Part shown: in pieces, positions 10,638 to 50,834 of the stretch | Numbering within the stretch: position 1 is the first letter of the stretch | Layout: each line of letters begins with the position of its first letter | Assembly (NCBI GenBank): GCA_024614665.1 | Contig: GCA_024614665.1_4861.1 | Strand: one strand, 5' to 3' | Length of the DNA: 64,000 nucleotides | Source: a phage | The notes under the pieces: model-generated | Told to the model about the DNA's origin: nothing | The model's database searches: none | What the model saw: the letters and a program-made list of their open reading frames with translations, nothing else | Position numbers and translations under genes: made by a program

Positions 10638-10680
10638 AAGAAAGGCCTCTCTACCCTAGGGTAGAGAGGTACTTTTATTT
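10638..10680. terminator. bidirectional intrinsic terminator
   Basis: Hairpin CCTCTCTACCC-TAG-GGTAGAGAGG flanked by A-run and T-run. Confidence 0.7.
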
Positions 10681-11180
10681 AGCCGCCAAAGGCGTGCATA
10701 ACCAGCGAACGGAGGTCCGGGTCGTTCAAGCGACGGGCCAGACGGTCAACATCGTTGGTATCACGGAAACGACCTTTATCGGCGCAGCGTGCGTAACGAA
10801 TCAGCATGTTAATAAAGATAACGAAGACTTCACGCTCGTCACGATTCGGGAAGTTCTCACTGATACGGTTATTAGCAGCCGGTGCGTAGAAAATACCGTT
10901 ACGGTGCTTATTAGCCGCTTCTACAAAGGCGTAGAAACCATCCAGGAAGGCCTGACCGCGCAGTTTAAACAGCTCACGGAAAGAGTGATGCAGCTTATTA
11001 TACGCATCTTTCTCAGCCTGGGTACCAGATGCTTTACGTGGGCCGGCGTTGTTACCTGCTTCATCGAGCATCGTGGTGATCAGTTTAACACGATATTGGT
11101 CGTCGTTGCTGTAAGAAGCGCTATCACGGACCACGCCTTCTGTACGCGGGTCAAGGGTAGTAGTGTCTTTCTTAGTCATG
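10679..11180 (-). CDS. hypothetical protein (possible RNAP beta-prime distal fragment)
   Basis: ORF 10679..11254 trimmed to ATG at 11180 just after upstream stop; weak resemblance FRELFKLRG to beta-prime trigger-loop region. Confidence 0.45.
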
Positions 11181-18497: not shown

Positions 18498-20603
18498 TTA
18501 CAACTCAATTACCACAGCGGCTCCTAGGTCATCGTACAACGATGCCGGGATTTTGTACTCGGTATAAAAACCAACGCGATCGATATTCCCCTGCTGTCCT
18601 TCAAACAACAACATCGGAATTGCCGAGCGCAAACTAATGAGCGTGTTGTGATCGACAAACCGTTTCCCGGTGGCATTAGTAGAATCCTCACTGTCAAATC
18701 CTACTGCCGGGAACGGGTTGGTTGGTGACTCTACACGAGATATCGCCAACATAATCGCAATATGCGTCATCGGTATACCACTCAGCTTACGCTGGATATA
18801 CTTAAACGTGTCCATCAATGCATAAGTACACTGTTTCTCTGTAGCACCACCCATTTCAACCAACGTTACCGGTTTCACACGACCTTGTTTCTTGTTCAGC
18901 TTCACAGTCGAGGCTGTGTTGATGATTTCCACAATGTCTTCGTTCTTATCGGCAGCAATCGAACGGAGCTTGGTTTCTAAGCCGGCTACGAACTCTGCCA
19001 TCGATTCAGAACGGTTGGTGTAGACCAGGACCGGGTGTTTCGGGTTCCATCCTTTTAAGGGGATTTCTACCGTCTTCTTCTCGATACGAATGTTCGCTCG
19101 TTGTTTCAAGAAGTAGTGCAGGAACGGTTTAGAGAAGTTCCCACAAACACCCATTCGCACATCGATAGAATCCGCAGCGATTATCTGCCCATCTTCTAAA
19201 CGACGTTGGAAAGTTAAGTCGGTGATTTCTGGTAATGCCGTTTCATCAATTGCATCGAGATCTTCATGATACGCAATCTGGCTCAGCTCCGAATAAACTT
19301 TGTCGGTAACAACCAACTCGTATTCTGACCAATTCCCACGCTGTGGTTTTGGCAGCAAGCACAACCCTTTCAGAGAGTTATGTTTGTATTCGGTCATATA
19401 CTCACGCATACGTGGGGTGAGTACCAGGTTGAGCAGATAACGCAAGAAGTCAAGGTGCTTGGTAGAGAGAATTCCCTGTGTACCCTTTTCCGAGATGGAC
19501 GTGGATGCCAGGTGACCTGGTGACGTACCTTCAGAGAGGTTATAAATCAAATCCCCCATACAGGTCGCACAGATGGACTGATTCGCCATCTCTTTACAGG
19601 TCATGGCACTACGGAAGACCAGCGGTTTACCAACCAGGTCAGCGTATCCACCTTTCTCAAATCGCAACCACGGACCGTTATCGCCCTCTAAACGATAACG
19701 CATTCCCACCATCGCTTTATAGGCACGCTCATCCAGCTGCGTATCCTTAAACGTGTAGCGGTGTGCGTGTGTTGTACCGCAGTCGTCGTACGTGAAATAC
19801 ATCAGTACGTTTGCTGCCAGCTGCAGTTTACGTGAGGCGTATTCTGCTTCGGCAATCTTGTCAGTGTTGTACAAGTGGGAACGTGAAGTTGCACCGGATT
19901 CTTTCAAACGCGAAATAACCGAATGCATCCCGGTAAAGAAGCCTTCCCACACCTGATTGGTGTATACGCGCGAGTCAATTTCTGACGTTTTACCACGCAC
20001 GAAGGCTTGCAGTACCTGGTTCATCTTCACGGTACCGTCCAGTACCGACATTACGACTGGGTTATACCGCAGCGCAGGGTCTTTGAAGATTTTCTCGATA
20101 AGCTTATACGCTTCTTCAACCATATCCTGACCATCTTCATCGTAGCCAGTAGGATACTGCACTTCCCACTGACGGATGAGTTCGAAGTTCGGGTGGTCGT
20201 AGATCTCCATCATCGTATCAAAGTCGATTGTCGTACAATAGGACAGCAAGTTCTTCACTGTCATGTTGAACGCATCGGCGTAGACATGTTGACTCAGGAT
20301 ATAACGCGTTTCAGCAAGGTCGACACCTGCTTTACGGGCCAGTACCGCTGCTTCCGACATAAAGTCCAGATGCAGGTCATCTGTTGCTACCTGACCTGGA
20401 CGATACGCCATGGTCGATGGAGTGGGCACCTGCGGATACAGACGCGACACACCCCAATACGGCCAGCTGAGTTTGATGTGGCGACTAGACATTTCCAACG
20501 ACTTACCATCGTCGAAAGTCACGTAATAACGCCCGCGTAGTTTCCACACCTGATCAGAGTTAAGCATACGCAAATCACGTACGTGTACAGAACGACCCGC
20601 CAT
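18498..20603 (-). CDS. RNA polymerase beta-prime-like subunit, C-terminal part
   Basis: YDDCGT and CATC...SEKGTQGILSTKH resembling E. coli RpoC DDCGT and GEPGTQLTMRTFH trigger-loop region. Confidence 0.75.
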   Translation of the reverse strand: MAGRSVHVRDLRMLNSDQVWKLRGRYYVTFDDGKSLEMSSRHIKLSWPYWGVSRLYPQVPTPSTMAYRPGQVATDDLHLDFMSEAAVLARKAGVDLAETRYILSQHVYADAFNMTVKNLLSYCTTIDFDTMMEIYDHPNFELIRQWEVQYPTGYDEDGQDMVEEAYKLIEKIFKDPALRYNPVVMSVLDGTVKMNQVLQAFVRGKTSEIDSRVYTNQVWEGFFTGMHSVISRLKESGATSRSHLYNTDKIAEAEYASRKLQLAANVLMYFTYDDCGTTHAHRYTFKDTQLDERAYKAMVGMRYRLEGDNGPWLRFEKGGYADLVGKPLVFRSAMTCKEMANQSICATCMGDLIYNLSEGTSPGHLASTSISEKGTQGILSTKHLDFLRYLLNLVLTPRMREYMTEYKHNSLKGLCLLPKPQRGNWSEYELVVTDKVYSELSQIAYHEDLDAIDETALPEITDLTFQRRLEDGQIIAADSIDVRMGVCGNFSKPFLHYFLKQRANIRIEKKTVEIPLKGWNPKHPVLVYTNRSESMAEFVAGLETKLRSIAADKNEDIVEIINTASTVKLNKKQGRVKPVTLVEMGGATEKQCTYALMDTFKYIQRKLSGIPMTHIAIMLAISRVESPTNPFPAVGFDSEDSTNATGKRFVDHNTLISLRSAIPMLLFEGQQGNIDRVGFYTEYKIPASLYDDLGAAVVIEL

Positions 20604-32945: not shown

Positions 32946-33185
32946 TTAGCCCATCACCGCTTCCAACGGAATGCCTTCTTCATCGTCCTCATCTGCCTCA
33001 ATAAGGAACTGGTTCTGCATACTGATTAGCTCGTTATGTAAAACCATGCCGTGTTCTACGCGGTCCACATCAGTAGAAGACATAAAGCCGTTATCTGGAC
33101 GGAATTGGAGCGCCAACTTCATCTCAGTTTCATCGACTGGCAAACGTACCTGGAACTGGTCACCATCGAAATCCTGTTTGTCCAC
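32946..33185 (-). CDS. RNA polymerase beta-prime N-terminal-like subunit, putative exon 2 (DFDGD catalytic loop)
   Basis: Encodes VDKQDFDGDQFQV resembling NADFDGDQMAV; no SD before the GTG; in-frame stop upstream at 33216-33218; exon boundary inferred. Confidence 0.55.
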   Translation of the reverse strand: MDKQDFDGDQFQVRLPVDETEMKLALQFRPDNGFMSSTDVDRVEHGMVLHNELISMQNQFLIEADEDDEEGIPLEAVMG

Positions 33186-33394
33186 CGTACACCGTTTCCG
33201 TATACAGCAGGTGTGCTAAGACACCCTCCTTATCTCTCGACAAGGCACAGACTATATCTTCACCATAGCTTACGCCTTAGGTGTTCTCCCACTTCGAAGT
33301 CCACTAGGACCCCTACTCGCATTTCAGCGATAGTCGTTGAACATTCCTCTCACGAGGCTTCGCTGCTGATTACCCATTATCACAACCCTTAGCA
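33186..33394 (-). other. putative intron in beta-prime-like gene (boundaries uncertain, may span about 33200-33600)
   Basis: ORF-free gap between beta-prime N-terminal homology and the DFDGD segment; no ORF inside. Confidence 0.45.
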
Positions 33395-34897
33395 CTATTG
33401 TTTAGCATAGGTCATCGTATCTGTTGTTTCAGACTTTCGTCCCCATTTCTGGTAGATACGCTTTAGGGTTTCCCAGCAATTCAGGAGAATACACATCGGA
33501 GGTTTCCCGTCCGATGGGGCTCTTTTCGAACCGTTAGCCATCTTTATCACACGGTCAGAGATACGCAGCGAACACTGGTTAACATCGGTAACAACTTCGT
33601 CGATGAACAGCGTCTGAATAGACAACTGTACCAGCGTTGGGTTACGTAGCGGTATAACCATGATCCCAAGACCGCCTGGGGATTCACGAATCAGTTCTTT
33701 AAAGATTTCGTCTACAAGCGGGTCATACTGCATTGCCGCTTTTGCGACGATACGTTCACACTGCCGCGACGAATAACCCCGGCGTAGCAGTTTGTTCTCG
33801 ATGTGGGTCGACATCAACCCAACCATCCAACGCCATGGTGCTTTTAACTTCCAGGCATCGTGTGGTTCTGAGATAGGTGAGATGGTTGCACGACCACCGA
33901 ACGGAATATGGGTGGAACCCAATTTCGCACGATAGTCACCCGGTTTACCTTCCATAGACTCACGACGGAAGTCCATGTGGAAGTACGTTAACTGACGGTT
34001 CGCTTTCAAAGCGCGACTAATCAGAAAACGCGGTTCGATCGCTTTACGCCGCGTATAAAGTAACGCGATATTTTTCACCGCATCAATAGCACCCGTGAAC
34101 ACTGGGTCTACCATGACACCACGACGACCTTCCTCAGTAACGATAAGTTTAGAGGAGATTAGCGGTAAGTGTCTTGGGAAGAATGCATGGCGTTGCGTTT
34201 CGAATAGCTCCTTCCATTGTAAACGTAAGCGTTCGCCTTCAGCGGCGTTATGCCGATTAGGTGCGAAGATTTCCTTCCAGGCTTCTGGCGTGGTAAGGAT
34301 GTTAAAGATACTAACGTGGTTATCAACCAGATTGCGCAAGCCACGAACGAAACCATGTTCTTCCAATACACGTTTCACAGCATGTGCGCGTTTACCGTCT
34401 GGTTCTTCTATAAGGTAATACGGGTCAATCATCCACATCATCAAGTCATTACCGCGTTCGATAGTGACCTTGTTACGTTCAAACTTCTTCAACTTGCTAT
34501 TAAAGAAAGCATTGAACATTGCCCAGAATCGTGGGTTGACGAAGTTACCCATTTCATCAGGTGCACGTAACCATACATCGGATTCAATTCGATGTTCAGT
34601 TACAACATAGCCACACGTCGGACACTTACAACCGAGATTGTAACGATGCGCGATCGGTGCCGGACAATCCAAACTACAAATCGGTGCAGAGTTCAGTTCT
34701 TCGTCAACGATTCTGTTCTGTACCATGCGATCGATAAGTTCAGCAACCTCGATCGCATCCCCGTTAACAGCGACATCGTTAATAATAGTGGGTGGTTTAA
34801 TACCTTTGGCAGCAGCTTCTATTTGCAAATCGGACAAATAGTTATCCTGACTAACCAACCGGCCGGATATTCCGTAGAATTTTGGTACCTTTCTCAC
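33395..34897 (-). CDS. RNA polymerase beta-prime N-terminal-like subunit, putative exon 1
   Basis: Zn-finger-like CSLDCP...CKCPTC; LRNPTLVQLSIQTLF resembling RpoC NRQPTLHRMSIMAF; catalytic DFDGD absent from this ORF. Confidence 0.65.
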   Translation of the reverse strand: MRKVPKFYGISGRLVSQDNYLSDLQIEAAAKGIKPPTIINDVAVNGDAIEVAELIDRMVQNRIVDEELNSAPICSLDCPAPIAHRYNLGCKCPTCGYVVTEHRIESDVWLRAPDEMGNFVNPRFWAMFNAFFNSKLKKFERNKVTIERGNDLMMWMIDPYYLIEEPDGKRAHAVKRVLEEHGFVRGLRNLVDNHVSIFNILTTPEAWKEIFAPNRHNAAEGERLRLQWKELFETQRHAFFPRHLPLISSKLIVTEEGRRGVMVDPVFTGAIDAVKNIALLYTRRKAIEPRFLISRALKANRQLTYFHMDFRRESMEGKPGDYRAKLGSTHIPFGGRATISPISEPHDAWKLKAPWRWMVGLMSTHIENKLLRRGYSSRQCERIVAKAAMQYDPLVDEIFKELIRESPGGLGIMVIPLRNPTLVQLSIQTLFIDEVVTDVNQCSLRISDRVIKMANGSKRAPSDGKPPMCILLNCWETLKRIYQKWGRKSETTDTMTYAKQ

Positions 34898-34911: not shown

Positions 34912-34950
34912 CAAAAAAAGAGGGAAGGACGGAGGCGTTAGCCCCCGTCC
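34912..34950 (-). terminator. intrinsic terminator after the 617-aa protein gene
   Basis: Hairpin GGACGG-loop-CCGTCC followed on minus strand by T-run. Confidence 0.6.
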
Positions 34951-34979
34951 GTTTCCTAACTACTCAGTAACCGATTCGA

Positions 34980-36833
34980 TTACAGTTTGAAGTTGCTCAG
35001 AGACACGCCCAGACCGAAATCGGAACCGCTTGCAGACAGGCCGTTGCCAGACAGCGTGAAGTCTTCCCCACCGTTGTTGAAGAACAGAGAGGTCGCCATC
35101 GTGTTGTAGGCATTTACACCAGTCATAGACCAGGTGCAGTTGTTACGGACGAAGTCCAGCAGGCATTTACCGAAGATCGGGTTGATAGCCATATCCAGAG
35201 ATTCACCGGTAGCTTGCGGTGCTTTGGATGCGAACAGAGAAGCGGCCAGTTTCAGCATGTAGATACGCTGCTGACGCTCGTTCAGTTCACGGTGGCTGTA
35301 GGACTGTGCGTTCAGGTAGCTATAGACGTCGTTCGCGTTATCACCCAGTTTGGTAACAACGGAAATCAGGTCCATATCCTGGAAGCTGCGTTTCTGTGCA
35401 GTACCGGTGTAAACACCGGAAACAGTCGGTACGGCTGCTTTCACGATGTGGCTGCAATGGATGGTACCATTGAAGGCATCGCCCAGCTGTGCTTTCAGTG
35501 CAGAAGCAAATACTGCAGTGAAGCTGGTCGCTGCAACAACTTCGCCGTTCTGATCACGCGGGGACATGGAATTCAGAATAGCGAGCAGCTGTTTCAGAGA
35601 GTTGTCGTAACCGACCGCAATTTCAGACAGCATAGTAGACAGACCACCCAGGCCGTTACCGGCACGATGGCTAACTACCAGTGCTGCTTCACGCGGTGCG
35701 AACATATCCAGGCAACCTTCGATAGCTTCACGGCTACCGTCGATTTTGGATACATCAGGACGAGCGTCAGCACCCCAGGACAGGTATTCTGCCACACGGG
35801 AGAACTTGCGATCTTGTTTGTTCAGGCGTTTCACAAACAGGTCACGCCAGCCACCGATTGCCGCGATTTCTGCAAATGCAGCCAGCAGCAGCAGTTGACG
35901 TTCATACGGTGCCATTGCACCTTCAGTTTGAGAATCGACCAGACTTACTACGATTTCAGCCTGCAGCTGTTTCAGGTCGTAGACGCCGTTAACGACAGGT
36001 TTCTGACCGGTGAAACGCATATTGACGAAACCGGTACCGGATACACGCGGATACACCTGTACCTGATTGGTGTCCAGCAGAGTCGGAGTGGCATCGGTTA
36101 CGTTGCTTGGGCTGTGCTCAACGGTGATTGCGAAATCAGCACGCTGTGCGTGGCCGTTAGCATCCACAACCGCGCCATCTTCCAGCGGCATTACTGAGGC
36201 CTGATAACGGTCATGCTTACGCAGGTTCAGTGTACCCAGGTAGCCTGCGATACGACCGAAGATACCCATCATCATCTGACCCATCAGGGTACGTGCCCAC
36301 TCAGCATCCAGAACTTTACCCAGGTCTGGTACGGAGTTGATGATCATGAAGTTCGCATTGGTCAGACCATGCGCTTCCATGATGTTTTTCTGTACTACTG
36401 CCAGCACGTCTTTGTTGAACAGTTCAGTGATGGTGTAGTAGTCTTCCTGGCCGTTGTTGGTAGTTTCTTTCAGACGCAGAGACTGACCGCGTTCAAAGAA
36501 GATGATACCGTACAGCCAGTGGCCCTGCCATTGGCCTGCGACGTACGCCGCGGAACCCATTTCGTTACCCACGCCGACGATGGTGCCCCAGCGGAATGCG
36601 TTGAGGTATTCGTTGCTTTTCTTCAGCTCATCCAGGAGGTTGGTGAAGTGCATTGCATAAGTGCTGATGTTGCGGATGCCAAATGCGTTATCGAATTGGC
36701 TGACAGTAGAAGTACCCGGCACAGCAGTTTGCACTTTTACAGTCTCGTTGCCCAGACCGCCCAGTGGTGCGGTGTCTTGAGTCTGAGTGTTGTTCTGCTG
36801 AGCGTTGTTGTTAGAGTCAACGATTTTTACCAT
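34980..36833 (-). CDS. abundant 617-aa protein (major capsid protein or nuclear-shell protein candidate)
   Basis: Strong highly-expressed-type codon bias, AAGGAA SD, motif upstream, terminator downstream. Confidence 0.75.
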   Translation of the reverse strand: MVKIVDSNNNAQQNNTQTQDTAPLGGLGNETVKVQTAVPGTSTVSQFDNAFGIRNISTYAMHFTNLLDELKKSNEYLNAFRWGTIVGVGNEMGSAAYVAGQWQGHWLYGIIFFERGQSLRLKETTNNGQEDYYTITELFNKDVLAVVQKNIMEAHGLTNANFMIINSVPDLGKVLDAEWARTLMGQMMMGIFGRIAGYLGTLNLRKHDRYQASVMPLEDGAVVDANGHAQRADFAITVEHSPSNVTDATPTLLDTNQVQVYPRVSGTGFVNMRFTGQKPVVNGVYDLKQLQAEIVVSLVDSQTEGAMAPYERQLLLLAAFAEIAAIGGWRDLFVKRLNKQDRKFSRVAEYLSWGADARPDVSKIDGSREAIEGCLDMFAPREAALVVSHRAGNGLGGLSTMLSEIAVGYDNSLKQLLAILNSMSPRDQNGEVVAATSFTAVFASALKAQLGDAFNGTIHCSHIVKAAVPTVSGVYTGTAQKRSFQDMDLISVVTKLGDNANDVYSYLNAQSYSHRELNERQQRIYMLKLAASLFASKAPQATGESLDMAINPIFGKCLLDFVRNNCTWSMTGVNAYNTMATSLFFNNGGEDFTLSGNGLSASGSDFGLGVSLSNFKL

Positions 36834-36870
36834 TTTAAATATTCCTTAATAGTGATTGCAATCATAGTTC

Positions 36871-36885
36871 GGTTCGCAGAGATAA
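36871..36885. promoter_or_regulatory. palindromic motif AGATAATATCTGCCT
   Basis: 38 bp upstream of start of the abundant 617-aa protein gene. Confidence 0.5.
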
Positions 36886-36972
36886 TATCTGCCTGTAATT
36901 TCATGGAATGCAAGTATGCCGTCGCTTACTTACAAGGCACATAGTCCAGACATTTCTCAGGAACTGTCACAT

Positions 36973-36987
36973 AGATAATATCAATCT
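36973..36987. promoter_or_regulatory. palindromic motif AGATAATATCAATCT
   Basis: 53 bp upstream of plus-strand start 37040. Confidence 0.5.
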
Positions 36988-37039: not shown

Positions 37040-38107
37040 ATGTTCAGCCAAGCCGAGTTAAACCAAGTGGCCATAAAGGGTCACAGCACGGACCCCTCCG
37101 CTATAACATTAGCGGCTCACGTAAAAAACAACAGCCAGCGTATACGCAACTACTTCGAACAGCTTAATCGCAGTGCTGGTAATGGCCATTTGTTGCAACA
37201 GGTGTTGTCTGCCATCGGCTATGCCGGTGAACCAGAGTACGAAGACATCGAATGGGCTTGCCGTCGCAAGCTTGTTCAGATCGGTAACGCCTTACGCTTG
37301 ACGTCTGTTGGTGAGTACGGTCAAATCTTTAATAGCAAGTTTATCCAGGGCCAAGATGAGGTAATCTCTCTCGTAGCCCGCCCAGTAAATCCAGACCTTT
37401 CGTTCCGCGACTACACCCCCGCCCGTTACCTCTACCATGAGTATACCAACCTCAATTGGAAGTTCGGTGACGGACGGCCCCGAGGTGTTACGGTGATCGA
37501 AATCAACCTGGTTGCTTTGCTTTGGCAATATGTCAAAGGCCAGCAGCACTACAGTCGCGGTACCGAACCTATTGCCACACCTGTGTATCTCCAACGACAT
37601 GTGATCTCTCGCATGTTGCCGAGCTACATGGATATCGCCTTTGTAAATATACATCGTGCGATAGCCTTCGGGAAAGAGATTGAACCGGATGAAACATTAC
37701 GTGTCATTCCTGTTCCGCCGCTTCAAGCTTTAGCTGTGAAGCACGCAAAAGGCATCCGTAGTAAACTACTGGCTGCCAACCCGTTACCGGGACAAGTCTT
37801 AAACAACATCCCATTGTTCTTCCAACACCCTGATGAAGAAGGCCACACTGCACTGGAACTGATTGTCTTTCGAGAACCAGGTCAAACACTGCAGAACACC
37901 TGGCACCAGAACATGGTGAACTGGTACTGGGCACTGTTTTGTCTTCAATACAACCAGGGGAATATGGAGAAACACAAACGTACGATGTTGGTTGATTTGG
38001 CGCGTTATGTGGACTCTAAAGTCCTCACACGTTTGACCAAATCCTTCTATAACTTCATCCAACGCGATTTGATTATCCCGTTGATGACAGAGCTAGAAGA
38101 AAAATAA
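37040..38107 (+). CDS. hypothetical protein
   Basis: Start set at ATG 37040 with AAGGAG SD; motif upstream; terminator downstream. Confidence 0.7.
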   Translation: MFSQAELNQVAIKGHSTDPSAITLAAHVKNNSQRIRNYFEQLNRSAGNGHLLQQVLSAIGYAGEPEYEDIEWACRRKLVQIGNALRLTSVGEYGQIFNSKFIQGQDEVISLVARPVNPDLSFRDYTPARYLYHEYTNLNWKFGDGRPRGVTVIEINLVALLWQYVKGQQHYSRGTEPIATPVYLQRHVISRMLPSYMDIAFVNIHRAIAFGKEIEPDETLRVIPVPPLQALAVKHAKGIRSKLLAANPLPGQVLNNIPLFFQHPDEEGHTALELIVFREPGQTLQNTWHQNMVNWYWALFCLQYNQGNMEKHKRTMLVDLARYVDSKVLTRLTKSFYNFIQRDLIIPLMTELEEK

Positions 38108-38778: not shown

Positions 38779-41058
38779 TTACTCCTCCGCTTCTTCCCCA
38801 TCTTCTTCCTCTCCATCACGTTCAGATTTCTTAACGTACTCACCACTACCTAATTCTTCCTTGACGGAATCTACAGACTCACCGTAGTAATCCGAAAGCA
38901 GACGAGTTCTGTTCTTGTCCATCATGAACACACCCAGACATTCCAGAATGTGATAGTAAGGTTCTACTGTGGAGAATGCGCTTCGACGTGTGTCTGCAGC
39001 ATCAATCAGCTCCGGCGGAATACCGAAGTTTTCCACCAGGAACTCTGGCAGTATCAGAGTGCGATAGGTACGATAGTTGTTTTCTTCGAACCACCGTGTT
39101 GCGGTGGTCTTAATCATCGGGTCTTTAATGTTTTCCAGCCACTCTTTAACGGCTGTTTTGTTCTCCAGGTTTACCGGAAGTTTCACGGCGTCATAAGGCG
39201 GTTCGTCCAGGTAGCCGTACTTCGGTCCAAAGATAGCGTTGTACATGCGGTGGTAATGGTAACTCTTTTCATCATCTTCAGAGTACGCACTACGGTCTTT
39301 GACGTTGGTTGTTTTCAGGTAGCCTGCTTTACCAGCGCGAATAGAATCCACCACAACGTGCTCAATTGCAGCAACCTTTTCCAGCAGAGGCAGAATCTTA
39401 ATCTTGTCACCACGTGCCACGATCTCACAGAGTTCTTTAATCGTGCGTTTGAACTCTTTCATGACCACCGGAGGAATGTTCGACGTACGTAAAGACACGC
39501 CCTTAACTTCTAACTCAGGGTCAGACTTCAACTGCCCTTCCTGGCCAGTGATGATGGAGAAATAGTGTTTTGCTTTCGTGGTTAACGCAAAGGAGTCGAA
39601 CTTAAATTCGTTCTTCATTGCGTACAAAAACAGACGCTCTTTCGCCACACCGATATTCGCCGACATACTCGCCATCAGATGACGTAAGTGCTGGGTTGCG
39701 ATATAAATCATCGCATCCGATACGCGCGTAGCTTCACGACCGTAATGTTGACCGGTATACCACTGCGCCCACCACTGTGCAGTCATCATCGTGGAGTCGG
39801 TATCAGATACCACGCCAACACGACGAACCACGTCAGGCATCCTGGCAATGTTGATTGGCAGGTTTTTGGTGGTCAGGATATTACGAATCAAGCACGCGTA
39901 CTTACCGATGGTTTTCTGCAGATACACAGCTGAGCGAATCAGCTCTTTGTATTTTTCCTGCTTATCCCACGGTTCCGCTTTGTTCGTGTTTTCGTCTTTG
40001 AGTTTAACGTCAGAGAACGACTTACCTAATGGCACGATATCAGTACGGAACTGCGAGATAATGATCTGCATGTCACCGTCGATAGAGCGCTCAGCAGCAT
40101 CCCAATCAGTGATCTCGTCTTCCATCTCCTCGGCAATCAGCGCACCGATAAATCCACGCATGAATTCATCGTTATATTTCGCCAGGTGGTAGAAGTCACC
40201 CATGTAGACAAACGCTGCACGTACCAGCGGGCTACAATTACCGACGTAGTGACGAATGAACTCCACCCCTTCCTCGTTACGGAAGTAAAACTCTGCAGAG
40301 TACATAACCACTTCCATAACCTCGTCCACAGTTGGGTAGTGGAGGTTATAGAGTTCCATACACTTCTTGAACTCCGCAAAGTTAGTCAGTGTACCGATAG
40401 AGAGTAGGTGGTCGATGACACGAGACGGCGTGTCGTAGTGACGATTACCGCCCAGTAGTCGTTCGTTGCCCGCATTACCGAATGATGTAGCTGTACGGCA
40501 GGTTGACGTCAATACAGAGTGTGAAGACTGGTTAAAGATTACCGTGTACGGTGATGAGAATGCACCCGACATCCCGTTGTTCAACGTCTTAACAGCGTTC
40601 TGTTCGTTCTTTTTGTTAATACGTAAAACTTCGTTTCCTGCAGCACCGGCTGCATACATCTCTTTCTTAACCACCGCACGCTTACGCACGTTCTCTGCCG
40701 TAAATTCAGCAAGCTTAGAACGCTTGACGTGTTCCGGCAAATAGAAAGTCAACGACGGTGCAGAAATGATCTGCTTATCAATCACTGTACGGAACAGTTT
40801 ATCTACCGTGGTGTATTTTTCTTCGCGATCGCCGGTCTTTTGATTGCGCACCCACATCTTACACACGGGGAATTCGTGTACTAACTCACCACCAGGTTGG
40901 AACATTTCTTCGACCTGCTGTCGACAGAACTCCAAAGAATATTTCCCGTTGGTGACGGTATGAATGTAGAGCGCCAGTTGTTCGTAGTACGCATCGATAA
41001 CGTCAATGTCGCGATGATACTCGTCTTGACTAAGACGAAATGGTGAATTGTAGTCCAC
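38779..41058 (-). CDS. polymerase-like protein (possible family-B DNA polymerase catalytic part)
   Basis: VVSDTDS (motif C-like), KTLNNGMSGAF (motif B-like), KAKHY (KxY-like); acidic C-terminal tail. Confidence 0.5.
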   Translation of the reverse strand: MDYNSPFRLSQDEYHRDIDVIDAYYEQLALYIHTVTNGKYSLEFCRQQVEEMFQPGGELVHEFPVCKMWVRNQKTGDREEKYTTVDKLFRTVIDKQIISAPSLTFYLPEHVKRSKLAEFTAENVRKRAVVKKEMYAAGAAGNEVLRINKKNEQNAVKTLNNGMSGAFSSPYTVIFNQSSHSVLTSTCRTATSFGNAGNERLLGGNRHYDTPSRVIDHLLSIGTLTNFAEFKKCMELYNLHYPTVDEVMEVVMYSAEFYFRNEEGVEFIRHYVGNCSPLVRAAFVYMGDFYHLAKYNDEFMRGFIGALIAEEMEDEITDWDAAERSIDGDMQIIISQFRTDIVPLGKSFSDVKLKDENTNKAEPWDKQEKYKELIRSAVYLQKTIGKYACLIRNILTTKNLPINIARMPDVVRRVGVVSDTDSTMMTAQWWAQWYTGQHYGREATRVSDAMIYIATQHLRHLMASMSANIGVAKERLFLYAMKNEFKFDSFALTTKAKHYFSIITGQEGQLKSDPELEVKGVSLRTSNIPPVVMKEFKRTIKELCEIVARGDKIKILPLLEKVAAIEHVVVDSIRAGKAGYLKTTNVKDRSAYSEDDEKSYHYHRMYNAIFGPKYGYLDEPPYDAVKLPVNLENKTAVKEWLENIKDPMIKTTATRWFEENNYRTYRTLILPEFLVENFGIPPELIDAADTRRSAFSTVEPYYHILECLGVFMMDKNRTRLLSDYYGESVDSVKEELGSGEYVKKSERDGEEEDGEEAEE

Positions 41059-45197: not shown

Positions 45198-45212
45198 AGA
45201 TAATATCTATGC
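45198..45212. promoter_or_regulatory. palindromic motif AGATAATATCTATGC
   Basis: 31 bp upstream of 9-gene operon start 45167. Confidence 0.5.
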
Positions 45213-48105: not shown

Positions 48106-48165
48106 GATGCATACCTTTTATAGTCGAGTTGGGAGAATTCAGATGAGGATTTCTCATCTCACTTA

Positions 48166-48180
48166 GGTAATATCTATCTG
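48166..48180. promoter_or_regulatory. palindromic motif variant AGGTAATATCTATCT
   Basis: 61 bp upstream of minus-strand start 48105. Confidence 0.45.
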
Positions 48181-49529: not shown

Positions 49530-49605
49530 CGAGCAAACGGACGGATTCGAACCGTCGAAATATCCGATTATGAGTCGGGTGTTAATTCCTCTAACTTCGC
49601 TGCTC
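49530..49605 (-). tRNA. tRNA-like, anticodon CAU (Met or Ile2), imperfect acceptor stem
   Basis: T-arm GACGG-TTCGAAT-CCGTC, anticodon loop CTCATAA, D-arm GTTA..TAAC; acceptor pairing imperfect. Confidence 0.5.
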
Positions 49606-49606
49606 T

Positions 49607-49675
49607 TGCTTTGACCGGTCTCGAACCGGCGACCTTCCTCAAAGAGGTTGCTCTACCTACCTGAGCTACAAAGCC
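49607..49675 (-). tRNA. atypical tRNA-like element (about 69 nt), anticodon uncertain
   Basis: Acceptor GGCTTTG/CAAAGC, D-arm TAGCTCAGGTAGGTAGAGC, T-arm GCCGG-TTCGAGA-CCGGT; anticodon/variable region 3-4 nt too short. Confidence 0.4.
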
Positions 49676-50757: not shown

Positions 50758-50834
50758 TGGCGGGGGCACGAGGTTTCGAACCTCGAACCTTCGGTTTTGG
50801 AGACCGGTGCGCTACCAATTGCGCCATACCCCCA
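50758..50834 (-). tRNA. tRNA-Trp (anticodon CCA)
   Basis: Minus-strand GGGGGTATGGCGCAATTGGTAGCGCACCGGTCTCCAAAACCGAAGGTTCGAGGTTCGAAACCTCGTGCCCCCGCCA: canonical cloverleaf, loop CTCCAAA, 3' CCA encoded. Confidence 0.85.

What the first reader, a model, noticed from the sequence alone, without database searches (positions are those of the whole stretch)
34980..36833. Strongly codon-biased 617-aa gene with dedicated promoter motif and terminator
This gene has the most pronounced highly-expressed codon usage in the window, a strong SD, a motif copy 38 bp upstream and a terminator downstream, consistent with a very abundant protein. The size fits either a major capsid protein or a nuclear-shell (chimallin-like) protein; I cannot distinguish them from sequence alone.
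Basis: inference. Interest (0 to 1): 0.55.

Follow-up and report, generated by a model that had tools for sequence, protein, structure and literature searches.

The report
Phage nuclear-shell protein gene (chimallin)
This gene encodes chimallin, the abundant protein that SPN3US-like giant Salmonella phages use to build a nucleus-like shell around their DNA; it is not the capsid protein, and it is already described in the literature.

Summary
The ORF is real: 34980..36833, minus strand, 617 aa. It is the most codon-biased gene in the window (Nc 34.4; next lowest 40.2; Fop 0.80 against a mean of 0.55).

The window is an SPN3US-like Seoulvirus. The protein is 99.8% identical to SPN3US YP_009153316.1, called gp22 in GenBank and gp244 in RefSeq. 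Laughlin et al. 2022 list that protein as a diverged chimallin (ChmA).

Tests run here agree:
- A two-step profile search reaches PhuN (E 3e-18).
- The 64%-identical, syntenic Asesino gp39 forms a GFP ring around phage DNA.

Two tandem copies of an AT-rich motif lie upstream of the gene, and a hairpin plus T7 terminator lies downstream. Both are conserved across the relatives examined, and the terminator stem shows compensatory changes. The Shine-Dalgarno site is only average.

The finding is already known, so interest is low.

Side finding: a 356-nt ORF-less group I intron splits the downstream nvRNAP beta' gene at its catalytic DFDGD motif.

The parts
34980..36833 (-). chmA coding sequence (617 aa plus TAA stop): chimallin, the phage nuclear-shell protein
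   Evidence: ORF. 99.8-100% identical to SPN3US/SaP7 proteins. Chimallin fold. Profile homology.
36702..36833 (-). N-terminal tail, aa 1-44. A conserved MVKIV start is followed by a variable Q/N/T-rich low-complexity stretch. It is the counterpart of the dispensable N tail (aa 1-47) of 201phi2-1 chimallin.
   Evidence: pLDDT 25-34. Column conservation 0.31 for aa 9-44. Alignment. 201phi2-1 anatomy from PMC9365700.
36654..36701 (-). Candidate NTS (aa 45-60, SQFDNAFGIRNISTYA): a conserved segment just before the folded core, at the same position as the intra-tetramer docking segment (aa 48-61) of 201phi2-1 chimallin
   Evidence: Conservation 0.69 with marginal model confidence. The docking role is inferred by analogy.
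35103..36653 (-). Folded two-domain core (aa 61-577): an alpha/beta N-terminal domain plus a GNAT-like C-terminal domain
35040..35102 (-). Candidate CTS1 (aa 578-598, TMATSLFFNNGGEDFTLSGNG): predicted disordered in the monomer but conserved
   Evidence: pLDDT below 50 from aa 578. Conservation 0.71. The profile alignment extends to 201phi2-1 residue 615, which covers its CTS1.
34983..35024 (-). Candidate CTS2 (aa 604-617, SDFGLGVSLSNFKL), following a variable 5-aa linker
   Evidence: pLDDT about 30. Conservation 0.64 against 0.40 for the linker.
36843..36847 (-). Shine-Dalgarno AAGGA, 9 nt before the ATG. Conserved in relatives but of average strength.
   Evidence: Sequence. Rank 19 of 44 by anti-SD duplex energy. 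Conserved in SPN3US, Asesino, STsAS, Caitlin and Machina.
36872..36894 (-). Proximal promoter-motif copy P1 (AGGCAGATATTATCTctGCGAAC). It ends 38 nt before the ATG. Inferred early promoter for the virion RNA polymerase.
   Evidence: Conserved at the same position in six relatives. The class is described in PMC7598289.
36965..36987 (-). Distal promoter-motif copy P2 (AGATTGATATTATCTatGTGACA), about 130 nt before the ATG. The core is nearly palindromic, so a weaker plus-strand reading (36969..36983, 3 mismatches) faces the divergent gene.
   Evidence: Conserved in six relatives.
34913..34956 (-). Intrinsic-terminator-like hairpin (GGAA..GGACGGGGGC TAAC GCCTCCGTCC TTCC) followed by a T7 run, lying between chmA and the nvRNAP beta' gene
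   Evidence: Fold. Conserved hairpin plus T7 in 6 phages, with 4 of 11 stem pairs showing compensatory changes.
32946..34897 (-). Downstream gene: non-virion RNA polymerase beta' subunit. Exon 1 is 33530..34897, a group I intron is 33174..33529, and exon 2 is 32946..33173. It starts 16 nt after the terminator T run with no motif copy of its own, so it is probably expressed by read-through from the chmA promoters (inference).
   Evidence: phrog_2987. Alignment to SPN3US. Rfam RF00028. The spliced product is 531 aa with 1 mismatch to SPN3US gp243. Orthologue Asesino gp040 is nvRNAP beta'1.

Best explanation
The gene is chmA. It encodes chimallin, the major protein of the phage nucleus in an SPN3US-like Seoulvirus of the family Chimalliviridae.

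Proposed mechanism, with each step marked as shown or inferred:
1. After injection, the virion-packaged RNA polymerase starts transcription at two tandem AT-rich early promoters upstream of chmA. This is inferred from motif statistics, position and conservation.
2. Host-optimal codon usage allows very high translation. The bias is shown here; the abundance is reported in the literature for the identical SPN3US protein.
3. The 67-kDa protein folds into the two-domain chimallin core. This is shown by model and fold search.
4. It polymerises into a flexible square lattice, using a conserved N-terminal segment and two conserved C-terminal segments that dock on neighbouring protomers. [quoted passage not shown]
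5. The lattice encloses replicating phage DNA and excludes host nucleases. This is established for the family, and the 64%-identical Asesino orthologue localises as a ring around phage DNA.
6. A conserved hairpin plus T7 terminator after chmA probably stops most transcripts and lets a fraction read into the nvRNAP beta' gene. This would give much more shell protein than polymerase (inference).
For: Identity: 99.8% to SPN3US YP_009153316.1 and 100% to the SaP7 protein. Laughlin et al. 2022 list that accession as a chimallin homologue and link it to the square lattice seen in SPN3US lysates.

Sequence: the family profile finds only 24 representatives among 1.84 billion proteins. A profile that includes the distant ones hits phiPA3 PhuN at E 3e-18 and 201phi2-1 chimallin at E 5e-6. 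One distant member passes Pfam PF25677 Chimallin_Phikzvirus, and that family is precomputed on nine close homologues.

Architecture: disordered tails at aa 1-53 and 578-617 contain conserved blocks where NTS, CTS1 and CTS2 lie in 201phi2-1 chimallin.

Context: the order DNA polymerase, divergent 362-aa gene, chmA, nvRNAP beta' is kept in the six related phages examined (SPN3US, STsAS, Asesino, Caitlin, Machina, CR5), which span several genera.

Experiment on an orthologue: GFP-tagged Asesino gp39 forms a ring around phage DNA.

Expression: codon bias, promoter motif, terminator. SPN3US gp22 is abundant in infected cells and absent from purified virions.
Against: Direct one-step sequence searches find nothing: Pfam, phmmer against PDB, and the close-family profile against PDB. 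Identity to solved chimallins is only 12-14%, so the assignment rests on a predicted structure and on transitive profile homology.

There is no localisation or lattice-composition experiment for this phage or for SPN3US itself. The protein in the SPN3US tetragonal sheets has not been identified by mass spectrometry in the papers read.

SPN3US gp22 co-purified with protease-deficient proheads through two gradients, which led its discoverers to propose a scaffold role.

Promoter function, transcription start sites and terminator read-through are all inferred and not measured.
Confidence: 0.95

Rival explanations
1. It is the major capsid protein, an HK97-fold protein that builds the T=27 head.
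For: Size around 600 aa and very high expression signals. In protease-mutant particle preparations it is as abundant as the capsid protein.
Confidence: 0.01
2. [quoted passage not shown] This was the earlier proposal for SPN3US gp22.
For: gp22 is abundant in doubly gradient-purified protease-mutant prohead preparations and absent from mature heads (PMC7411985). The prohead protease of phiKZ cleaves its own chimallin (PMC9365700).
Against: The fold is chimallin, not a helical scaffold. The orthologue forms a ring around the phage DNA. Large square-lattice sheets exist in the same SPN3US mutant lysates and could co-sediment with proheads. The stringent SPN3US protease motif A-X-E occurs only once in the protein (AIE at aa 370-372), inside the folded core, and the tail has only a G-G-E that is not invariant.
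Confidence: 0.03
3. It is an active GNAT-family acetyltransferase or toxin-like enzyme rather than a structural protein.
For: [quoted passage not shown]
Confidence: 0.01

Closest known systems
SPN3US chimallin homologue YP_009153316.1 (GenBank SPN3US_0022 = 'gp22' of the Thomas laboratory; RefSeq ACQ60_gp244 = 'gp244' of Laughlin et al. 2022)
   Same: 99.8% identical over all 617 aa, with the same flanking genes and the same promoter and terminator sequences. It is the same gene in a sister isolate.
   Different: One amino-acid difference. In this window the downstream nvRNAP beta' gene carries a 356-nt group I intron that SPN3US lacks.
Erwinia phage Asesino ChmA (gp39)
   Same: 64% identical, same length class, same synteny, same tandem promoter motifs and same terminator. 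The GFP fusion forms a ring around phage DNA.
   Different: Different genus (Erskinevirus) and host. The low-complexity N tail has diverged.
Structurally solved chimallins: 201phi2-1 gp105 (7SQQ-7SQS, 8IGG), Goslar chimallin (7SQT-7SQV), phiPA3 PhuN gp53 (8FNE)
   Different: Only 12-14% identical, and undetectable by single-sequence or close-family profile searches. The tail sequences are unrelated at sequence level, so the docking contacts cannot be transferred residue by residue. The C-terminal tail is about 10 residues shorter.
Early (virion RNA polymerase) promoters of phiKZ-like jumbo phages
   Same: A roughly 10-nt, highly conserved AT-rich element upstream of presumed early operons, as described for every RNAP-encoding jumbo phage (PMC7598289). 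Here it is GATATTATCT, strongly over-represented and intergenic.
   Different: The sequence is specific to this clade. No transcript mapping was found for it in the papers read. Two tandem copies in front of chmA, conserved in all six related phages examined, are not described in those papers.

Membership tests
Chimallin (ChmA / PhuN) nuclear-shell protein family | Two-domain core fold: an alpha/beta N-terminal domain plus a GNAT-like C-terminal domain | tested here: met
Chimallin (ChmA / PhuN) nuclear-shell protein family | Detectable sequence homology to established chimallins | tested here: met
   Not met in one step. Met in two steps: the family profile recruits distant representatives at E 1e-13 to 7e-4, and the widened profile hits PhuN at 3e-18 and 201phi2-1 chimallin at 5e-6. 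One recruit passes Pfam PF25677 at 35.4 bits against a cut-off of 27. PF25677 is also recorded on nine close homologues.
Chimallin (ChmA / PhuN) nuclear-shell protein family | Flexible N- and C-terminal segments (NTS, CTS1, CTS2) that dock on neighbouring protomers | tested here: inconclusive
   Tails at aa 1-53 and 578-617 are predicted disordered. They contain blocks as conserved as the core (0.64-0.71, against 0.31-0.40 for the spacers), at the positions of NTS, CTS1 and CTS2 in 201phi2-1. Docking itself could not be modelled because no multimer prediction was available.
Chimallin (ChmA / PhuN) nuclear-shell protein family | Self-assembly into a square lattice that encloses phage DNA during infection | not testable with these tools
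   Literature only. A tetragonal lattice is present in SPN3US lysates (PMC7552025) and is attributed to this protein by Laughlin et al.. The 64%-identical Asesino gp39 forms a GFP ring.
Chimallin (ChmA / PhuN) nuclear-shell protein family | Encoded in a Chimalliviridae genome with split multisubunit RNA polymerases | tested here: met
   The window is a Seoulvirus. The nvRNAP beta' gene lies immediately downstream. Another RNAP beta-like gene is at 20603..22840 and the DNA polymerase gene at 38779..40905. Synteny is kept in all six related phages examined.
Chimallin (ChmA / PhuN) nuclear-shell protein family | Very abundant non-virion protein | not testable with these tools
   Indirect evidence here: the strongest codon bias in the window. 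Literature: gp22 is abundant in infected cells and absent from purified virions.
HK97-fold major capsid protein | HK97 fold | tested here: not met
HK97-fold major capsid protein | Located in the head-morphogenesis module and present in virions | tested here: not met
   The gene is flanked by DNA polymerase and nvRNAP genes. The major capsid protein is gp75 in SPN3US and gp091 in Asesino. gp22 is absent from purified virions (literature).
Jumbo-phage early (virion RNAP) promoter | A roughly 10-nt conserved AT-rich element recurring upstream of genes, on the same strand | tested here: met
   14 matches against 2.9 expected. Six of 7 copies are intergenic, P about 2e-5. All face a downstream start codon. 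Positionally conserved upstream of chmA in six relatives.
Jumbo-phage early (virion RNAP) promoter | Element centred near -10 of a mapped early transcription start site and used by the virion RNAP | not testable with these tools
   No transcript data for this phage group were found. The class description comes from PMC7598289.
Intrinsic (hairpin plus U-tract) terminator | GC-rich stem-loop followed by a U run, with structure maintained in evolution | tested here: met
   10-14 bp stem plus T7. The hairpin and T7 are conserved in six phages, with compensatory changes in 4 stem pairs. Termination by the phage RNA polymerases is untested.

The most novel reading that the evidence does not exclude
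Two readings go beyond the published one.

(a) The chmA unit may be a conserved expression valve. Two tandem virion-RNAP promoters drive a host-optimised chmA gene, and a leaky terminator meters read-through into the promoter-less nvRNAP beta' gene. This would fix a high shell-to-polymerase ratio at the moment the nucleus is founded.

(b) In this clade chimallin may also take part physically in head assembly or capsid docking. That would explain why SPN3US gp22 stays with protease-deficient proheads through two gradients.

Neither reading is excluded by the evidence, and neither is tested.
Probability: 0.12. Interest if true: 0.45.

Novelty: already known. Interest (0 to 1): 0.15.

Why it matters
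Chimallin is the defining protein of nucleus-forming phages. Its shell keeps CRISPR and restriction nucleases away from the phage genome. Calling it correctly in a raw window separates a chimallivirus from other jumbo phages and prevents a mis-annotation as capsid or scaffold protein.

For this gene the assignment is already published, so the value here is confirmation by independent fold and profile tests. Two modest additions follow. The tandem promoter and terminator architecture is conserved in all six related phages examined. The two gene-numbering systems for SPN3US have already led to a wrong accession being cited as 'SPN3US chimallin'.

Tried and rejected
- Direct Pfam scans of the protein and of three close homologues gave no meaningful hit, even at E <= 10.
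- PHROGs gave only an unnamed family, phrog_8316.
- phmmer against PDB sequences found nothing.
- A profile of 27 close homologues against PDB found nothing at E <= 10.
- phmmer of two distant recruits (P0045, P0046) against PDB found nothing. The bridge to solved chimallins therefore exists only at profile level.
- The consensus promoter/terminator scanner found no more sites than shuffled sequence and missed the real hairpin. A sigma-70-like TTGCAA-18-TAAAAT overlapping the start codon was rejected as a chance match.
- I considered a prohead-protease cleavage site in the linker before CTS1, as in phiKZ gp54. The tail has only G-G-E, which is not invariant, whereas the SPN3US protease prefers A-X-E. 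This is not supported.
- The long plus-strand ORFs inside the gene (35214..36197 and 36213..36944) are rejected as genes. They lie in the exact mirror frame of the chmA codons and stay open only because TTA, CTA and TCA are almost unused (0, 0 and 1).
- The Weintraub 2019 proteomics paper could not be read.
Full report
**1. The observation**

The ORF is exactly as described: 34980..36833 on the minus strand, ATG start, TAA stop, 617 aa. The first residues, MVK, are conserved in nearly all of the 27 aligned homologues, so the start codon is sound.

The codon-bias claim holds quantitatively.
- The effective number of codons is 34.4, the lowest of 52 ORFs. The next lowest values are 40.2 and 41.2, both in much shorter ORFs.
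- The fraction of classical enterobacterial optimal codons is 0.795, against a window mean of 0.555. That is about four standard deviations above the other genes.
- The codon table is the pattern of host ribosomal-protein genes: CTG for 55 of 58 leucines, only CGT/CGC for arginine, and GGT/GGC for 53 of 54 glycines.

The bias also explains the two long plus-strand ORFs inside the gene (35214..36197 and 36213..36944). They lie in the exact mirror frame of the codons. They stay open because TTA, CTA and TCA, whose reverse complements are stop codons, occur 0, 0 and 1 times. They are artefacts.

**2. The signals around the gene**

*Promoter motif.* The core GATATTATCT has six exact copies in the window, all on the minus strand. 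With one mismatch allowed there are 14 matches against 2.9 expected, and no shuffle reaches 14. The extended consensus is AGATAGATATTATCT, often followed after two bases by GTGA.

Six of the seven good copies are intergenic in a window that is at most 12% intergenic (P about 2e-5). Each of these six lies about 30 to 140 nt upstream of a start codon on the same strand.

The chmA leader has two copies:
- P1 at 36872..36894.

Both copies sit at corresponding positions upstream of the orthologous gene in SPN3US, STsAS, Asesino, Caitlin, Machina and, more degenerate, CR5.

A review of jumbo-phage RNA polymerases states that every such phage has a conserved, roughly 10-nt AT-rich motif upstream of early operons. 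It is centred near -10 and taken to be the promoter of the virion-packaged polymerase (PMC7598289). I therefore read P1 and P2 as tandem early promoters. No transcript mapping for this clade was found, so this is inference.

*Terminator.* The hairpin is GGACGGGGGC-TAAC-GCCTCCGTCC, extensible to 14 bp, and is followed by T7 (34913..34956). The simple scanner missed it. All six phages examined keep a hairpin plus T7 at this position, and four stem pairs show changes on both sides that preserve pairing.

*Shine-Dalgarno site.* The sequence is AAGGA with a 9-nt spacer. It is conserved, but it ranks only 19th of 44 by duplex energy. It is present but not notably strong.

**3. What the protein is**

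The window is an SPN3US-like Salmonella jumbo phage of the genus Seoulvirus. The protein is 100% identical to that of phage SaP7 and 99.8% identical to SPN3US YP_009153316.1.

Databases of named families say nothing directly:
- Pfam gives no hit.
- PHROGs gives only an unnamed family.
- Neither the single sequence nor a profile of 27 close homologues finds any PDB sequence.

Structure decides the question. An AlphaFold2 model built on that alignment has pTM 0.78, a confident core (aa about 55-577) and unstructured ends (aa 1-53 and 578-617).
- Foldseek against the PDB returns nine significant hits, and all are chimallin/PhuN: Goslar, 201phi2-1 and phiPA3 (E 6e-21 to 1e-15, target-normalised TM 0.65-0.71). 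The tenth hit has E 0.08.
- No HK97-fold capsid protein appears among the listed hits.

Sequence homology can be recovered in two steps. The close-family profile finds only 24 representatives among 1.84 billion proteins, the last ten at E 1e-13 to 7e-4. A profile that includes them hits phiPA3 PhuN at E 3e-18 and 201phi2-1 chimallin at E 5e-6.

One of the distant recruits passes Pfam PF25677, 'Chimallin_Phikzvirus'. That accession is also precomputed, with a later model version, on nine proteins that are 48-66% identical to the query.

**4. Anatomy compared with solved chimallins**

In 201phi2-1 chimallin the layout is as follows (PMC9365700):

| Segment | Residues | Role |
|---|---|---|
| N tail | 1-47 | dispensable |
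| NTS | 48-61 | intra-tetramer docking |
| Core | 62-581 | two folded domains |
| Linker | 582-589 | unresolved |
| CTS1 | 590-611 | inter-tetramer docking |
| Linker | 612-621 | unresolved |
| CTS2 | 622-631 | inter-tetramer docking |

The protein here has a matching layout:

| Segment | Residues | Column conservation |
|---|---|---|
| Variable Q/N/T-rich N tail | 9-44 | 0.31 |
| Conserved block (candidate NTS) | 45-60 | 0.69 |
| Folded core | to 577 | 0.66-0.70 |
| Conserved block (candidate CTS1) | 578-598 | 0.71 |
| Variable linker | 599-603 | 0.40 |
| Conserved block (candidate CTS2) | 604-617 | 0.64 |

Segments that a monomer model leaves disordered, yet which are as conserved as the core, are what docking peptides should look like. 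I could not model a multimer, so this feature is consistent with chimallin but not proven.

**5. Context and experiment in relatives**

The gene order DNA polymerase, small genes, a divergent gene of about 355 aa, chmA, nvRNAP beta' is kept in SPN3US, STsAS, Asesino, Caitlin, Machina and CR5.

Asesino gp39 is 64% identical to the query. It was tagged with GFP and forms a ring around the DAPI-bright phage DNA. The next gene, gp040, is the nvRNAP beta'1 subunit (PMC11724907; annotation).

For SPN3US the relevant literature reports the following:
- The protein is called gp22 by the Thomas laboratory. It is abundant in infected cells, and in protease-mutant particle preparations it is comparable to the capsid protein. 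It is absent from purified virions (PMC7552025, PMC7411985).
- Those authors proposed a scaffold role.
- Large tetragonal sheets were seen in the same kind of lysate.
- Laughlin et al. later identified YP_009153316.1 as a chimallin homologue with about 10% identity to 201phi2-1 chimallin, and attributed the sheets to it.
- The major capsid protein is gp75.

**6. Mechanism**

The best-supported account is given under Best explanation. The fold and the family membership are shown here. Abundance, shell localisation and the function of the lattice come from the literature on identical or orthologous proteins. Promoter use by the virion polymerase, tail docking and terminator read-through are inferred.

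The read-through idea rests on three points:
- The nvRNAP beta' gene starts 16 nt after the T run.
- It has no motif copy of its own.
- In 201phi2-1 the orthologous beta' gene, gp107, also has no promoter of its own, and the nearest early promoter is about 3 kb upstream (PMC11512511).

**7. Verdict**

The gene and its function are already in the literature, so novelty is 'already known' and interest is low.

The additions from this analysis are modest:
- independent confirmation by fold and profile searches;
- tandem promoter copies and a covarying terminator, conserved in all six related phages examined;
- the side observations in section 8.

**8. Side observations**

*Group I intron.* Relative to SPN3US, the window has a 356-nt insertion in the nvRNAP beta' gene. 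Rfam calls it a group I intron above the gathering score (RF00028, 65.5 bits, E 2e-14).
- With boundaries 33529..33174 on the minus strand, the 5' exon ends in U and the intron ends in G.
- No ORF lies inside it.
- Splicing restores a 531-aa protein that differs from SPN3US gp243 at one residue.
- The intron sits between codons inside the catalytic motif MANG|DFDGDQ.
- Introns in chimallivirus RNA polymerase genes are a known phenomenon (PMC11620839, listed).

*Gene numbering.* RefSeq numbers SPN3US genes in the reverse order of GenBank. The 'gp244' of Laughlin et al. is therefore the 'gp22' of the Thomas laboratory. The Thomas 'gp244' is a small virion RNAP piece, which is RefSeq ACQ60_gp022, YP_009153538.1. 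A 2025 preprint cites YP_009153538 as 'SPN3US chimallin'. That appears to be this mix-up.

Noticed in passing
window 33174..33529 (minus strand), inside the nvRNAP beta' gene 32946..34897: A 356-nt ORF-less group I intron (Rfam RF00028, 65.5 bits) that SPN3US lacks. It is inserted within the catalytic MANG|DFDGDQ motif. Splicing restores a 531-aa protein with one mismatch to SPN3US gp243. The 500-aa ORF listed at 33395..34897 is exon 1 running into the intron. In the same 6-kb interval JN03 seems to share the insertion, and SaP7, EC001 and Lh1B carry further insertions of about 0.7-1.0 kb.
   Followed up: yes
SPN3US records (L001, L002, L008): RefSeq locus tags (ACQ60_gpNNN) run opposite to the GenBank tags (SPN3US_0NNN). 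Chimallin is therefore 'gp244' in Laughlin et al. but 'gp22' in the Thomas-laboratory papers, where 'gp244' is a virion RNAP piece. Preprint 10.1101/2024.12.31.630880 cites YP_009153538 (ACQ60_gp022, a 240-aa virion protein next to the head protease) as SPN3US chimallin, apparently through this mix-up.
   Followed up: yes
window 35214..36197 and 36213..36944 (plus strand): Two long antisense ORFs (327 and 243 aa) lie inside chmA, in the exact mirror frame of its codons. They exist only because TTA, CTA and TCA are almost unused in chmA, so they are artefacts of the codon bias.
   Followed up: yes
window 36969..36983 (plus strand) and gene 37019/37040..38107 (plus strand): The motif core is nearly palindromic, so the distal copy also reads, with 3 mismatches, towards the divergent gene of about 355-362 aa (phrog_3938, no Pfam hit). 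That gene is the divergent neighbour of chmA in all six related phages examined. It could share a bidirectional promoter region and be functionally linked to the nucleus; its function is unknown.
   Followed up: partly
window 26614..26628 (minus strand): One perfect 15-nt motif copy lies inside an ORF (26361..27995, phrog_3209), about 265 nt upstream of the next gene's start at 26348. It may be an internal promoter.
   Followed up: no
window 22871..22885, 28030..28044, 45198..45212, 48165..48179 (minus strand): Other motif copies sit 30-60 nt upstream of an RNAP beta-like gene (20603..22840, phrog_3295) and of three genes of unknown function. These genes are candidates for the early regulon.
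   Followed up: partly
window 49532..49603, 49606..49675, 50761..50833 (minus strand): Three tRNA genes are called by Rfam at gathering threshold. Two of them are adjacent.
   Followed up: no
window 28131..28826 and 10679..11179 (minus strand): These are the next most codon-biased ORFs (Fop 0.69 and 0.685; Nc 40.2 for the first, which matches phrog_3284 of unknown function). They may be other highly expressed proteins.
   Followed up: no
proteins P0028-P0031 (SPFM phage records) and hit H40: In several SPFM Salmonella phage records the chmA product appears as shorter proteins that match the profile in 17-24 separate stretches, or covers only 12% of the query by tblastn. This suggests frameshifted or low-quality sequence in those assemblies.
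   Followed up: no
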